A stretch of 64,000 nt of DNA, taken from NCBI RefSeq assembly GCF_000027125.1, contig NC_017626.1, one strand, 5' to 3'. A program made the position numbers. Positions 57,301 through 60,300 of this stretch are shown here, piece after piece. Numbering within the stretch: position 1 is the first letter of the stretch; every line of letters begins with the position of its first letter. Source of the stretch: Escherichia coli 042 (GTDB taxonomy: Bacteria > Pseudomonadota > Gammaproteobacteria > Enterobacterales > Enterobacteriaceae).

Positions 57301-60300
57301 GTGCAGACCATTGCGCCGTCAGGAACGGTTTCAGTGAATTTGATATTGCCGTGTTCGTCGAGACGGATAACCAGGGTGCGTCCGTCCCCGTGAATCATTT
57401 TGTCGGGAGACGGGGCGTTATTCTGGCGCAGTTCTGCTTCCATGCGGTCGAACTCAGCAATGTATGCCTCTTTAAATGCAGCGGCTTTTTTGCCAGTGAA
57501 GCCCATCACCAGGAAAACGAAGCCGTTTTTGGTGATTTGGTACATTGGGAGTTTGCGCCCGGTTGAGTCGGTGTATTCGCTTGACACAAAATTGTGCTCA
57601 GTGAATTTTGCTGAACAGTCCAGATTGCGAATTTTATCCAACACTCGTTCGTGGCGTTTGCCAAAGAACTCGGCGATCGCAACAGACGTAGTGACAGCGC
57701 GACCATTTTCGATGGTTACGTCAGGGTGAGAAAGGGTAAGGATAGTAGCCATGATGGCAGCCTCCGCGATGAATTTGATTAACTCACCACCGAGGTTTTC
57801 CACGACCATAAGGGTGGTGAGACGTACAGGGGTGGAAATACCGGTCATCACGGAACCCGGCCAGCCTTGCGGCTGCCCTGCACGCCCCACCATAATGCGA
57901 ATGTGGCTGTGCTTAACGCATAAAAAAACCGCCTGAGCGCGGTTATGCGCCGTGAATGATTTCGGGTTTCCACGCCCGGCACCCGTTTTATGAGGTGCAG
58001 GTGCACTATAATTCCACCCGTTCTGGTTTTCAATAGCTACATTCAACATTTTCTCTACCTTTCATCACCGAAGTGAACTTTGTTGATGCGGTGCCTGGTG
58101 CCTCCAGGTGACGTTAACCAGTTAACAATTAACGTCGGATACAGAGCATTCCCGTTACGCCCGTAAAAGACCGCTTGTTTTAACTGTTCCGCGTGCGCTG
58201 AGCCGCATTCACCGCATCACAAAATTCACTTTAAAAAGGGCGGCAGAGCAGTCACGGAGTAGAACTGATACCGCCAAAAGTCACCAGAAAATTGATAACA
58301 GAGGGCGTTGCAGCGGAGTTGTCACTTAAGCGTATGGTCAACCTGACAACCCGGTGTCCTCAGCGGGGAAGGAATAACCCCGCCATACTTACCGCCGCGC
58401 CATTTCGCGGATTGCCACAACCGGAAGCGCACGGTCGAACTAAATTTAACGACACCGTACAGAGAGACCAATTTCGCCGTGCGCTTTCGCGTTATGCCCT
58501 GACTTTTCAGGGACATATCCTTTCAGTAAACTGTCAGTGCCGGATGCTCACCCGTGTCCGGCGCACGCACTCCACCTGACCCGTGGAGAACTCCTTAATT
58601 ACCAACCCTCAGGAGGGTGAAATGGATAAAAAGCAAATTGAGGCCCTGCAATCTATTATTGAAAAACAAGATGAAGCTATCAGGATTCTTTCATATCGCA
58701 CTGATATGATACTAAATATGCTTTCTGCATTAACGGCTGCGCTTGGTGGTACAAAAACAAACGTATACCGCGAAGTTGTTATTCAACAGATAGATAAATT
58801 TGAAAAAACCATACCAGGTATTAATGCTCATCTTGCAGAACAAGAGAAAGACCATGCTCTTATGGCAATTTCTTCAGTAGCTCTCCCGAAAGTTGAGTAG
58901 TTTTAATTGTTGTTTTGAAATAATCACTGCTTTCACATTTGAGTGATTTCATGGCAATCCAAATGCGGGCCACTGTGCCTGCATTTGGTTCCAGTTGCTG
59001 TAGACGTTTTGCGTCTTCCAAAAGTAAGGCGATAATGTGTTTCAGCTTCTCATCATTTGCTTGATTCTTGTTTTCAGGCGAATTCTGTCCGCCGAATAGG
59101 CGCTTCTCTTCATACAGACCTATAAAGGCACGACGCACGTTACCGGATATAGTATCGATGGTTTCCTTTTCTACAGTACTCAGGTCAAGAGTCGCCAGTT
59201 GAGAGCGAACCACATTCGCTGCCATTTCCTGGAATGGCATTGGTAAATCTTTAAATTCCATTATTAGCCTCGTTGGTTAGCTATTAACGTGGGTATGTAA
59301 CCATTCTGGCAATGCTTAATGCCGCTGCTTTTTCCAGCCTGGTGATATCCTGCTCCAGAGCGGACAGATTTTCAGCCTGCTTAGTCCTGGCTTCATTGGC
59401 CCATTTCAGATCCTGCACTGCATTAATTTTCTGGCGCATCCACTCATAAAGTTCATCATCGGTATAGTCTGGCGCGATGATGACGGGTTCTCGTTTCTGC
59501 ATACTGATTCCTCGCGGTGCTGTTTCGCTTATCAGCCGTTAGATTTTCCCGAACTGGAAAGCGCCTGTTTAAATTCACTGAAGCTGAGAGCTTCTTCGCC
59601 TTCGGCAAGACCATCGAAGTATTCTTCGTAAGCCTTTTCCATGATTGTGTCGAAATCCATATCACTCACCTGAGTTTCTTTCCAGCCAGCGACGGGCACC
59701 ATTTTCGGTTTTAAACGTTTTGCTTTTGGTATACGTCATCGCGGTGAATGTGCCGTCCTGGTTGGGAAACACGCCGTACACCAGAGATTCGTTGTTGCCA
59801 AGCTCGATAGTATCCATGCTGACCTCATTTCCCCTTAACGCCGGGTGGCGGAACTAAAACCTACAGCGCCGTGCTGTTCTTGATAGAAATATTAGTAACG
59901 CGGATATTTTAAGTCAACAGTATGGCGTATGATATTTTTGATTTGGTAACTATGTAAATGTTTTTTCAAGGGAAAAATATTAGTTATACAGCTGATTTGC
60001 AGAAGTTATGGCACAAAAAAACCGACTAAGACGTCGGTTTTTTTGTTGTGGATGGGGTAGTGAGCGGTGGCTACTGGTTACGTTTCTTTAGTGCCAGCAT
60101 GTTCTCGAAGGCTTCCTCGTAGAGCTTGTTTAGTCCACGTAGCTGGTTAAGGAGTTTGGCTTTTTCTGACGCAGGTAGAATCTCGAAGAGGTTAAGTAAC
60201 TCTGCCTGTTCTTCATTGACCAGCCTCCATCCTTTGCCTGAAAAGTTATCATCATAAGTATCTGATGATCTTACATAATTCATTAAGTCTTTAAGGTCTT

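What the first reader, a model, noticed from the sequence alone, without database searches (positions are those of the whole stretch)
57753..58237. ORF-poor stretch with a terminator between DicF and rha
About 480 bp separate the DicF 3' end from the rha start placed at the GGAGG-preceded ATG. The interval contains a minus-strand hairpin plus T7 (57924-57946) and no ORF with a convincing RBS other than an in-frame N-terminal extension of rha. It may be a regulatory leader, or it may hold an unannotated small RNA or small protein.
Basis: seen in the sequence. Interest (0 to 1): 0.4.

Follow-up and report, generated by a model that had tools for sequence, protein, structure and literature searches.

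The report
P4-type RNA immunity cassette controlling rha
The "empty" stretch between DicF and rha is a known kind of phage switch: it encodes two small RNAs (IsrK/seqA-like and C4/CI-like) that block translation of the rha antirepressor gene, all nested inside a conserved reading frame, as in satellite phage P4.

Summary
In detail: 485 nt separate DicF (58289-58238, minus) from the GGAGG-preceded rha ATG (57752), and the hairpin plus T7 is real. The stretch is not empty. A conserved sigma-70 promoter lies just upstream of IsrK.

In 64 distinct homologous modules, including phage P4, two C4 recognition elements co-vary with two sites in IsrK. They also co-vary with two sites in the rha leader, one of which overlaps the rha Shine-Dalgarno sequence. 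There are 13 and 29 alleles of these elements.

The "in-frame extension" from ATG 58049 is the Pfam Ash domain and is homologous to P4 eta. The rha start is homologous to P4 kil. The frame stays open across IsrK and C4 in 58 of 64 modules, and module lengths are multiples of three.

The interval is therefore both an RNA-immunity leader and the 5' part of a nested long ORF, as in P4. Its first 163 nt are the conserved dicF-dicB spacer of K-12 Qin.

It is a new member of a known kind. RefSeq annotates only the long ORF.

The parts
58238..58289 (-). DicF sRNA. It is the upstream neighbour and bounds the interval.
   Evidence: Rfam RF00039, 71.5 bits against gathering score 48, full length. It is near-identical to K-12 dicF.
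58075..58237 (-). Structured spacer downstream of dicF. It is the same element that separates dicF from dicB in K-12 Qin and resembles STnc100.
   Evidence: About 90% identical to the K-12 dicF-dicB spacer. Predicted fold -68.5 kcal/mol, z = -3.97, with a long closing helix. The Rfam STnc100 match is below threshold (35.6 bits against 47) here and in K-12.
57195..58049 (-). Long ORF of 284 aa. It is eta-like: residues 14-109 are the Ash domain and residues 120-204 the Rha domain. It starts upstream of the internal promoter and runs through IsrK, its terminator and C4.
   Evidence: ORF list. RefSeq WP_000935597.1 'Rha family phage regulatory protein'. Pfam Phage_ASH E 3.5e-16 and Phage_pRha E 2.1e-30. 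BLASTP to the P4 'cI/eta' ORF E 4e-16. The frame is open in 58 of 64 modules.
58005..58033 (-). Sigma-70-type promoter TTGAAA-17-TATAGT. It is the homologue of P4 PLE and Gifsy-1 PisrK and lies inside the long ORF.
   Evidence: 10 of 12 match. The -35 TTGA and -10 TAnAnT are conserved at a fixed distance from the IsrK 5' end in 41 distinct upstream contexts, including P4.
57922..57998 (-). IsrK / P4 seqA-like sRNA. It has two 5' hairpins, a single-stranded linker and an intrinsic terminator (stem 57944-57927, T7 57928-57922). It carries decoy sites a1 (57973-57967, GUGGAAA) and b1 (about 57959-57950).
   Evidence: Rfam RF01394, 67.7 bits against 50. Hairpin 1 has 5 of 6 pairs with compensatory change and 99.5% of cells paired. 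a1:a' is 99.1% paired with 6 of 7 pairs compensatory; b1:b' is 93.7% paired with 7 of 9 compensatory.
57810..57897 (-). C4 / P4 CI-like antisense RNA. It has a 17-bp closing stem and two hairpins. Its recognition elements are b' (hairpin-2 loop, 57854-57845) and a' (junction, 57838-57832, UUUCCAC). A conserved in-frame AUG sits at 57893.
   Evidence: Rfam RF01695, 81.9 bits against 45. The closing stem is 99.6% paired with 8 compensatory pairs, and hairpin 1 has 5 of 5 pairs compensatory.
57753..57809 (-). rha leader carrying the C4 target sites (seqC-like). a2 is 57803-57797 (GUGGAAA). b2 is 57772-57763 (UCAUCGCGGA) and overlaps the Shine-Dalgarno GGAGG at 57765-57761.
   Evidence: b':b2 is 91.7% paired with 8 of 10 pairs compensatory. 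a2 is a perfect 7/7 complement of a' in 62 of 64 modules, and b2 is at least 9/10 in 63 of 64. Window duplex energies are -16.5 and -9.1 kcal/mol.
57195..57752 (-). Nested short ORF giving the 185-aa Rha protein. Its start is of the kil type and is the start under C4 control.
   Evidence: GGAGGCUGCCAUCAUGGCUAC is conserved in nearly all 64 modules, including P4, where this AUG starts kil. The Rha domain begins about 12-20 residues after this Met (Pfam; PHROG matches).

Best explanation
The interval has two parts.

(1) 58237-58075 is the conserved structured spacer that follows dicF in Qin-type early-left (dicB) operons.

(2) 58049-57753 is a P4/P1-type RNA immunity cassette placed in front of the Rha antirepressor domain.

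Proposed working:
- A constitutive internal promoter (58033-58005) starts transcription at about 57998.
- Most transcripts stop at the intrinsic terminator and yield the 77-nt IsrK/seqA-like RNA.
- Read-through transcripts carry the C4/CI-like RNA, which is cut out as a stable antisense RNA.
- C4 uses two short elements to pair with the leader. Loop b' pairs with b2, and junction a' pairs with a2. b2 covers the first bases of the rha Shine-Dalgarno sequence.
- This pairing blocks translation of the nested short rha ORF (ATG 57752). By the P4/P1 precedent, it also exposes the RNA to premature termination, so rha (and dicB behind it) stays off in the lysogen.
- IsrK carries copies of the same two target sequences (a1, b1). 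It can therefore pair with the C4 region as a competitor or activator, as shown for Gifsy-1 IsrK.
- When the prophage's early-left promoter upstream of dicF is derepressed, read-through transcripts include ATG 58049. Ribosomes then translate the long eta-like ORF straight through IsrK, the terminator, C4 and the target sites. This makes expression insensitive to the RNA immunity, as shown for P4 eta.

What is shown here: the RNA family matches, the structures, the intermolecular covariation, the promoter conservation, the frame conservation and the homology to P4 eta/kil.

What is inferred: RNA processing, repression, termination, and the immunity-bypass role of translation.
For: - RNA families: Rfam hits above gathering score for isrK and C4, full length, in the right order and orientation. 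The same two families hit P4 at its seqA and CI positions.
- Conservation of the arrangement: 80 Rha-linked loci keep the DicF-spacer-IsrK-C4-rha order.
- RNA structure, on 64 distinct modules (alignment A2): the C4 and IsrK helices are more than 99% paired with many compensatory pairs.
- Intermolecular covariation: a1:a', b1:b' and b':b2 are 92-99% paired, with 6/7, 7/9 and 8/10 pairs changed on both sides; slid controls are 36-49% paired. There are 13 a' alleles and 29 b' alleles. Each has its complement in its own IsrK and leader.
- Specificity: cognate duplex energy is -24.7 kcal/mol against -10.0 for non-cognate pairs.
- The b2 site ends in the GGA of the conserved GGAGG.
- Promoter hexamers are conserved in 41 upstream contexts, including P4 PLE.
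- Long ORF: Pfam Ash domain. It is homologous to P4 eta, and the rha Met aligns with the kil Met. The frame is open in 58 of 64 modules; the other two frames are open in 11 and 2. Module lengths of 183, 186, 189, 228 and 273 nt are all multiples of three. There are 76 distinct stop sites in the other frames. The 12 in this frame all lie in 7 aberrant sequences.
- Literature: the P4 eta/kil/CI/seqA mechanism and the use of Rfam C4 and isrK to find CI and seqA relatives (PMC10111431). In Gifsy-1, the IsrK helix G28:C162 / G31:C159 was proven by compensatory mutations at about the same positions as a1:a' here (offset about 3 nt) (PMC4825925). A C4 copy in E. coli O157:H7 is extremely abundant with low ribosome coverage (PMC5331693). 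Read-through past the DicF terminator exists in K-12 (PMC10448788).
Against: - There are no expression data for this locus. Processing of C4, repression of rha and any effect on dicB are all inferred.
- The window's b1 site pairs with b' only with a bulge (6 + 4 bp, -12.9 kcal/mol), so IsrK may be a weak competitor here.
- The Shine-Dalgarno sequence in front of ATG 58049 is weak (AAAGGUAGAGAAA).
- An intrinsic terminator inside a translated ORF is unusual, and read-through by coupled ribosomes is assumed rather than shown.
- Three natural variants carry 1-nt indels that break the long frame but keep the RNAs (L007, L038, L053). The long ORF is therefore dispensable in at least some copies, or these are sequencing errors.
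- The Gifsy-1 study gives IsrK an activating role and leaves the role of the C4-like STnc1160 open, so the direction of control may differ between members.
Confidence: 0.75

Rival explanations
1. Purely non-coding leader. rha starts only at 57752, and the open frame from 58049 is an accident of GC-rich, RNA-constrained sequence that is never translated.
For: - The RNA elements explain most of the sequence conservation.
- The amino-acid sequence of the extension changes radically between alleles.
- In Gifsy-1 the corresponding 'orf45' amino-acid sequence is reported as not conserved.
- A C4 copy in EHEC shows low ribosome coverage in a lysogen.
- Three variants have frameshifts.
Against: - The frame is open in 58 of 64 distinct modules, while the other frames gain and lose 76 distinct stop sites.
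- Insertions of 39 and 84 nt between IsrK and C4, and 3-nt deletions, all preserve the frame.
- Different upstream contexts all supply an in-frame start. Some have strong sites such as AAGGAGGUGCGUCCAUG, and some are coupled to cII by ATGA.
- P4 eta, the homologue, is described as translated, with its translation preventing termination (PMC10111431).
Confidence: 0.12
2. Purely protein-coding (the RefSeq annotation). The interval from 58049 is simply the N-terminal Ash domain of a 284-aa Rha protein, and the RNA family matches are incidental.
For: PGAP annotates the 284-aa ORF, and no ncRNA is annotated. Pfam, PHROG and NCBIfam models cover the long form.
Against: - Two independent Rfam families match full length, well above their gathering scores.
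- Helices show compensatory changes that alter the encoded amino acids.
- Three-way co-variation of short blocks 100-200 nt apart has no protein-level explanation.
- A promoter and an intrinsic terminator are conserved inside the ORF.
- An internal GGAGG-ATG is invariant next to a hypervariable block.
Confidence: 0.03
3. Gifsy-1-type positive control is the main mode. The read-through IsrK-C4-rha transcript folds into a translationally inactive structure in cis (IsrK a1/b1 paired with the C4 region). Free IsrK in trans opens it and switches rha on. The excised C4 RNA plays little part as a repressor.
For: This was shown experimentally for the homologous Gifsy-1 locus (PMC4825925). The a1:a' and b1:b' pairings needed for this model co-vary strongly.
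Against: - The leader sites a2 and b2 co-vary just as strongly with C4, and b2 sits on the Shine-Dalgarno sequence. The cis-only model does not require this.
- The Gifsy-1 feature of a separate orf45 ending at AUGA is absent here: the frame is fused to rha.
- In P1 and P4 the excised RNA is the repressor (my own knowledge; PMC10111431).
- The two models are not exclusive.
Confidence: 0.1

Closest known systems
Satellite phage P4 immunity region (PLE - seqA - CI RNA - seqC, with nested genes eta and kil)
   Same: - Same order of parts: an internal constitutive promoter, a seqA/IsrK element with hairpin and T-run, a C4-family RNA, and downstream targets.
- A long ORF starts upstream of the promoter, with a nested short ORF in the same frame.
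- The window's long ORF aligns with P4 eta (E 4e-16), and its GGAGG-ATG-MATxLTxSHP start aligns with the kil start.
   Different: - The spacer between seqA/IsrK and CI/C4 is 108 nt in P4 and 25 nt here.
- The cargo after the nested start is the 65-aa Kil in P4 and a Rha domain here.
- The upstream regulated promoter is P4 PLL, with coupling to the alpA homologue. Here it would be the dicB-operon promoter, with the DicF terminator and a structured spacer in between.
- The recognition alleles differ: a' is UUCUCAC in P4 and UUUCCAC here.
Salmonella Gifsy-1 isrK-orf45(STnc1160)-anrP locus (Hershko-Shalev et al. 2016, PMC4825925)
   Same: - An IsrK sRNA with its own promoter and a leaky terminator.
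- A C4-like RNA region downstream, then an antirepressor-type gene.
- The IsrK hairpin-2 region pairs with the C4 region, at positions corresponding to G28:C162 and G31:C159.
- The first AUG lies about 107 nt from the start site, matching 57893 here.
   Different: - In Gifsy-1, orf45 is a separate 45-codon frame whose stop overlaps the anrP start (AUGA). Here the frame is fused to rha, as in 59 of 64 modules.
- Here a longer ORF also starts upstream of the promoter.
- The genomic context differs: downstream of antQ in Gifsy-1, downstream of dicF here.
Phage P1/P7 immI (c4 - icd - ant)
   Same: - Same Rfam family for the antisense RNA.
- Two-element recognition (a', b') with upstream decoys (a1, b1) and downstream targets (a2, b2).
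- b2 lies on a ribosome-binding site.
- The regulated product is an antirepressor.
- Allele changes create hetero-immunity (my own knowledge of Citron and Schuster 1990; Rfam clan CL00128).
   Different: - P1 has a separate icd ORF coupled to ant. Here the target ribosome-binding site is that of rha itself.
- The Rfam c4-a1b1 model, which covers the a1/b1 target sites of C4, is below threshold here (25.7 bits against 46.7).
- The P1 sequence was not retrieved by similarity searches.
E. coli K-12 Qin dicF-dicB intergenic spacer / Rfam STnc100
   Same: 58237-58075 is about 90% identical to the K-12 spacer and sits in the same position after dicF.
   Different: In K-12 the spacer is followed directly by dicB. 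Here the Ash-Rha gene is inserted between the spacer and dicB. The STnc100 score is below the gathering score in both.

Membership tests
C4 antisense RNA (Rfam RF01695; P1/P7 C4, P4 CI) | Match to the covariance model at or above the curated gathering score, full length | tested here: met
   81.9 bits against 45, model positions 1-87 of 87, at 57897-57810 on the minus strand
C4 antisense RNA (Rfam RF01695; P1/P7 C4, P4 CI) | Long closing stem enclosing two hairpins, supported by compensatory changes | tested here: met
   The 17-bp stem is 99.6% paired with 8 pairs changed on both sides. Hairpin 1 has 5 of 5 pairs compensatory. Hairpin 2 is invariant.
C4 antisense RNA (Rfam RF01695; P1/P7 C4, P4 CI) | Two recognition elements complementary to one upstream and one downstream pair of target sites | tested here: met
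   a1:a' is 99.1% paired, b1:b' 93.7%, b':b2 91.7%. a2 is a perfect complement in 62 of 64 modules. There are 13 and 29 alleles.
C4 antisense RNA (Rfam RF01695; P1/P7 C4, P4 CI) | Downstream target overlaps the ribosome-binding site of the first regulated ORF | tested here: met
   b2 (57772-57763) ends in the GGA of the GGAGG at 57765-57761, 8 nt before ATG 57752.
C4 antisense RNA (Rfam RF01695; P1/P7 C4, P4 CI) | Excised from a precursor (RNase P) as a stable RNA that represses the downstream gene | not testable with these tools
   Only indirect support: a C4 copy in EHEC has RPKM 69,654 with ribosome coverage 0.06 (PMC5331693).
IsrK (Rfam RF01394) / P4 seqA | Match at or above the gathering score, including the 3' intrinsic terminator | tested here: met
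   67.7 bits against 50, model positions 1-77 of 77, at 57998-57922. The terminator stem is 57944-57927 plus T7. The same model hits P4 at seqA.
IsrK (Rfam RF01394) / P4 seqA | Own promoter immediately upstream | tested here: met
   TTGAAA-17-TATAGT ends 7 nt before 57998. The hexamers are conserved in 41 contexts. This is sequence evidence only.
IsrK (Rfam RF01394) / P4 seqA | Hfq binding and trans-activation of the downstream antirepressor | not testable with these tools
   Known only for Gifsy-1 (PMC4825925).
c4-a1b1 motif (Rfam RF03163) | Match at or above the gathering score | tested here: not met
   25.7 bits against 46.7 at 58011-57959. P4 scores 44.1. The a1 and b1 sites are nevertheless present by covariation.
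P4-type nested genes (eta / kil) | Long ORF starting upstream of the internal promoter, in the same frame as a short ORF with its own Shine-Dalgarno sequence downstream of the antisense RNA | tested here: met
   ATG 58049 lies 16 nt upstream of the -35 hexamer. ATG 57752 is in frame. P4 has the same layout.
P4-type nested genes (eta / kil) | Sequence homology to P4 eta and to the kil start | tested here: met
   BLASTP E 4e-16, with EAAIMATILTLSHPD aligned to EAAIMATTLTPSHPE. Pfam Phage_ASH E 3.5e-16.
P4-type nested genes (eta / kil) | Reading frame maintained by selection across the RNA genes | tested here: met
   58 of 64 modules are open, against 11 and 2 for the other frames. Module lengths are multiples of 3. 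Stop sites number 12 (all in 7 aberrant sequences) against 34 and 42.
P4-type nested genes (eta / kil) | Translation of the long ORF from an upstream regulated promoter prevents termination | not testable with these tools
   Inferred from the P4 literature (PMC10111431) and from read-through transcripts past DicF in K-12 (PMC10448788).
Gifsy-1 isrK-orf45-anrP | Separate short ORF whose stop overlaps the start of the antirepressor gene (AUGA coupling) | tested here: not met
   The AUG at 57893 is in frame with rha and has no stop before it. Only 5 of 64 modules are out of frame.
STnc100 (Rfam RF02076) | Match at or above the gathering score | tested here: not met
   35.6 bits against 47 at 58226-58079. 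The K-12 spacer scores 34.4.
Rha family phage regulatory protein (Pfam PF09669, TIGR02681) | Domain match above the curated cut-off | tested here: met
   Pfam E 2.1e-30. TIGR02681 scores 106.5 bits against 45.95. PHROG 995, 518 and 373, described as transcriptional regulator, Rha-like regulator and anti-repressor.

The most novel reading that the evidence does not exclude
The roughly 100-residue 'Ash domain' (Pfam PF10554) is annotated on many phage Rha, Ant and Bro proteins and is said to have no known function. It may not be a protein domain in the functional sense. It could be the translation of a mobile RNA-immunity cassette (promoter, IsrK/seqA, C4/CI, targets). On this reading, its sequence is dictated by RNA structure, and selection acts only on keeping the frame open so that ribosomes can override the RNA switch. 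The two independently varying recognition elements (at least 13 x 29 alleles, 39 combinations in 64 modules) would then form a two-key code. That code would set which co-resident prophages and satellites silence each other's antirepressors.
Probability: 0.4. Interest if true: 0.5.

Novelty: new member of a known kind. Interest (0 to 1): 0.3.

Why it matters
- Annotation. RefSeq records for identical loci show only a 284-aa 'Rha family' protein. They miss two regulatory RNAs, an internal promoter and terminator, and a nested start.
- Biology. The cassette probably decides whether the prophage's Rha antirepressor, and the cell-division inhibitor dicB behind it, stay silent. It does so with an RNA specificity that differs between related prophages. 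This bears on cross-talk among the many lambdoid prophages of pathogenic E. coli.
- Limit. The mechanism itself is not new: it was worked out in P4, P1 and Gifsy-1.

Tried and rejected
- The simple terminator scan alone gave 3 hits against 2.1 expected, so it is not evidence on its own. I relied on the Rfam match instead.
The second pattern returned many chance hits, which I filtered with nhmmer profiles built from my own alignment.
- My first open-frame script kept only the last open frame per module and mislabelled some modules. I redid it with frames anchored on the conserved C4 AUG.
- The MAFFT alignment splits the a2 site with a 3-nt gap, which gave a falsely low 60.6% pairing for a':a2. 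I recounted by direct complement search: 62 of 64 are perfect.
- The terminator helix scores only 59.9% on A2 because other alleles use a different register. This is not evidence against the terminator.
- I considered that the Ash extension might match P4 epsilon, which one paper calls 'Ash'. There is no similarity. It matches the P4 'cI/eta' ORF instead.
- The original P4 papers (PMC94026, PMC176756) are not held. I cite the P4 mechanism from the summary in PMC10111431 and from my own knowledge.
- I considered STnc100 membership for the spacer and c4-a1b1 membership for the IsrK region. Both are below their gathering scores.
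Full report
**Observation.** All relevant features lie on the minus strand.
- DicF is at 58289-58238 (Rfam 71.5 bits).
The interval is therefore 485 nt.
- The hairpin plus T-run is present: the stem is 57944-57927 and the T7 run is 57928-57922.
- The only long ORF is the in-frame extension of rha from ATG 58049 (284 aa).
- The description is accurate. A simple terminator scan is not above chance on its own (3 found against 2.1 expected).

**What the interval contains.** A scan of the window against Rfam at curated thresholds places two RNA families inside the interval.
- isrK (RF01394) is at 57998-57922, with 67.7 bits against a gathering score of 50.
- C4 antisense RNA (RF01695) is at 57897-57810, with 81.9 bits against 45.
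- A promoter-like site, TTGAAA-17-TATAGT (58033-58005), ends 7 nt before the IsrK 5' end.
- Two weaker matches are below threshold: c4-a1b1 over the IsrK 5' region, and STnc100 over 58226-58079.

**Public annotation.** Loci 100% identical over the 601-nt query (57700-58300) occur in at least 25 complete E. coli genomes. RefSeq annotates only a 284-aa 'Rha family phage regulatory protein' from the upstream ATG and no RNA gene. The gene order is: repressor, ydfA-like genes, DicF, this interval, rha, dicB, exonuclease, xis, int. This is the early-left, dicB-type operon of a Qin/Rac-like prophage.

**Related sequences.**
- A search of viral contigs for Rha relatives gave 80 loci. Nearly all keep the same DicF-spacer-IsrK-C4-rha arrangement at 75-100% identity, in 59 distinct upstream variants.
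- A pattern search for the C4 hairpin, filtered with nhmmer, added about 50 further IsrK-C4 pairs from Stx phages, phiP27, Salmonella phages and others.
- Phage P4 carries the same pair. Rfam C4 falls on the known CI RNA and isrK falls on the seqA region.
- I aligned 64 distinct modules, from IsrK through C4 to the downstream start (alignment A2).

**RNA evidence.** On A2:
- The C4 closing stem is 99.6% paired, with 8 of 17 pairs changed on both sides.
- C4 hairpin 1 has all five pairs compensatory.
- IsrK hairpin 1 has five of six pairs compensatory.

More telling, sequence variation is concentrated in six short blocks that change together.
- The C4 junction a' (UUUCCAC here) is the exact complement of the IsrK hairpin-2 loop a1 and of a leader site a2 (GUGGAAA, 57803-57797).
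- The C4 hairpin-2 loop b' is complementary to the IsrK linker b1 and to a leader site b2 (UCAUCGCGGA, 57772-57763). b2 runs into the GGAGG of rha.
- Pairing is 99.1% for a1:a', 93.7% for b1:b' and 91.7% for b':b2, with 6/7, 7/9 and 8/10 pairs changed on both sides. Slid controls are 36-49% paired.
- a2 is a perfect complement of a' in 62 of 64 modules.
- There are 13 a' alleles and 29 b' alleles in 39 combinations.
- Cognate C4-leader duplexes average -24.7 kcal/mol, against -10.0 for pairs that differ in both elements.
- The promoter hexamers are conserved at a fixed distance from the IsrK 5' end in 41 different upstream contexts, including P4 PLE.

**The reading-frame puzzle.** The in-frame extension is not an accident.
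- Among the Rha-linked variants, the frame upstream of the rha ATG stays open for about 290-310 nt. An ATG sits at -297, -294, -291 or -288 in all but three variants, and those three carry single-base indels.
- Across the 64 modules, the frame defined by the conserved AUG at the 5' end of C4 is open from IsrK to C4 in 58. The other two frames are open in 11 and 2.
- Module lengths are 183, 186, 189, 228 and 273 nt, all multiples of three.
- Distinct stop-triplet sites number 34 and 42 in the other frames. The 12 in this frame all lie in seven aberrant sequences.
- The downstream GGAGG-ATG is in the same frame in 59 of 64 modules.
- Upstream, different genomic contexts all supply a start. Some have strong sites such as AAGGAGGUGCGUCCAUG about 54 nt before IsrK. 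In an Stx phage the ORF overlaps the cII stop by ATGA.
- Pfam identifies residues 14-109 of the window's 284-aa ORF as the Ash family (E 3.5e-16), followed by the Rha domain.
- The ORF aligns with the P4 'cI' ORF (E 4e-16). The rha Met (EAAIMATILTLSHPD) aligns with an internal P4 Met (EAAIMATTLTPSHPE), 65 codons before the stop. That P4 Met is the kil start.
- In P4 the same frame is open for 214 codons, from upstream of the promoter through seqA and CI. This is eta.
- The P4 literature, as summarised in PMC10111431, states the following. [quoted passage not shown] Kil is a truncated form translated on read-through. Full-length Eta is translated only from an upstream promoter, and its translation prevents termination. 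The same paper notes that Rfam C4 and isrK detect CI and seqA relatives.

**The upstream 163 nt.** Positions 58237-58075 are about 90% identical to the spacer between dicF and dicB in K-12 Qin. Similarity ends about 25 nt before the start codon. This spacer is predicted to fold strongly (-68.5 kcal/mol, z = -3.97), with a long closing helix. It is a separate, conserved element of dicB-type operons. Here the Ash-Rha gene sits between it and dicB. In K-12, transcripts from the DicA-repressed promoter either stop at DicF or read through into dicB (PMC10448788).

**Mechanism.** Taken together, the cassette most likely works as in P4 and P1.
- In the lysogen, the internal promoter makes IsrK (terminated) and some read-through RNA, from which C4 is excised.
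- C4 pairs through b' and a' with b2 and a2 and masks the rha Shine-Dalgarno sequence. Untranslated RNA is then prone to termination, so rha and dicB stay off.
- IsrK carries decoy copies of the targets. In Gifsy-1 it activates the downstream antirepressor in trans by pairing with the C4 region. That helix was proven by compensatory mutations at about the same positions as a1:a' (offset about 3 nt) (PMC4825925).
- When the early-left promoter is derepressed, transcripts that pass the DicF terminator include ATG 58049. Translation of the long frame through the RNA elements would bypass the RNA immunity.
- Shown here: family membership, structures, intermolecular covariation, promoter conservation, frame conservation and homology to eta/kil.
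- Inferred: processing, repression, termination and bypass.
- An E. coli O157:H7 data set reports one C4 copy at RPKM 69,654 with ribosome coverage 0.06 (PMC5331693). This fits an abundant, untranslated RNA in lysogens.

**Comparison and novelty.** The closest system is the P4 immunity region, followed by Gifsy-1 isrK-orf45-anrP and P1/P7 immI. Differences here are:
- the Rha cargo;
- the fusion of the short frame to rha, rather than a separate orf45 or icd;
- the 25-nt spacing between IsrK and C4;
- the position after dicF and its spacer.

Both Rfam families already detect the RNAs, and the link between these families and P4 CI and seqA inside Bro-type genes is published. This is therefore a new member of a known kind. 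Its main practical value is in correcting annotation.

An open point is whether the Ash peptide has any function of its own, or whether only its translation matters. One paper notes that no function has been assigned to the Ash domain (PMC8951638).

Noticed in passing
window 58075-58237 (minus strand); L206 636-800: The dicF-downstream spacer is about 90% identical to the K-12 Qin dicF-dicB spacer and is predicted to fold strongly (z = -3.97). It gives below-threshold STnc100 matches in both genomes. Part of it (window 58216-58087) also matches phages P7 and D6 at 78-81% in unannotated DNA (hits H52, H53). Its function is unknown.
   Followed up: partly
L001 6252-7106 (NZ_CP026723.1) and 24 other listed genomes: RefSeq annotates the long 284-aa ORF as a Rha family protein. 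It shows no ncRNA feature for DicF, IsrK or C4 at loci 100% identical to the 601-nt query (57700-58300).
   Followed up: yes
L138 3225-3413 and 3881-4066; L102; L101; L158; L136: Some viral contigs carry two IsrK-C4 cassettes in tandem about 650 nt apart. Each sits in front of its own downstream ORF and carries different a'/b' alleles, which suggests two independently keyed antirepressor switches in one phage.
   Followed up: partly
L165, L187, L092, L132, L189, L170, L134 (alignment A2, columns 107-185); P4: A subclass of modules has 64 nt rather than 25 nt between IsrK and C4, and P4 has 108 nt. All these insertions keep the reading frame.
   Followed up: partly
L007 (about 1420), L038 and L053 (terminator T-run): Three natural variants have single-base insertions: an extra T in C4, or T8 instead of T7 in the terminator. 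These break the long frame but leave the RNA elements intact. They could be real pseudogenisation or homopolymer sequencing errors.
   Followed up: no
window 57959-57950 compared with 57772-57763: In the window's allele, the IsrK decoy b1 pairs with C4 loop b' only with a one-base bulge (-12.9 kcal/mol). The real target b2 pairs over 10-11 contiguous bases (-16.5 kcal/mol). Most other alleles have an unbulged b1.
   Followed up: partly
window 58583-58900 (plus strand): A 105-aa ORF with a GGAGGG-type ribosome-binding site lies on the strand opposite to the early-left operon, between the ydfA-like genes and DicF. It was not identified.
   Followed up: no
window 10650-10715, 11186-11251, 27383-27943: These are ordinary chromosomal RNA genes: two rdlD antitoxin RNAs, two RtT repeats and two tRNA genes (a tyrTV-like locus). 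They show that the window is E. coli chromosome with a prophage occupying roughly 52.8 kb onward (integrase at 52824-53954).
   Followed up: no
window 58567-61870 compared with L001: The immunity region upstream of DicF is not homologous to that of the genome that is 100% identical across the finding. This includes the repressor at 60532-60071 and the cro-like gene at 60634-60915. The DicF-IsrK-C4-rha block therefore moves as a mosaic unit.
   Followed up: partly
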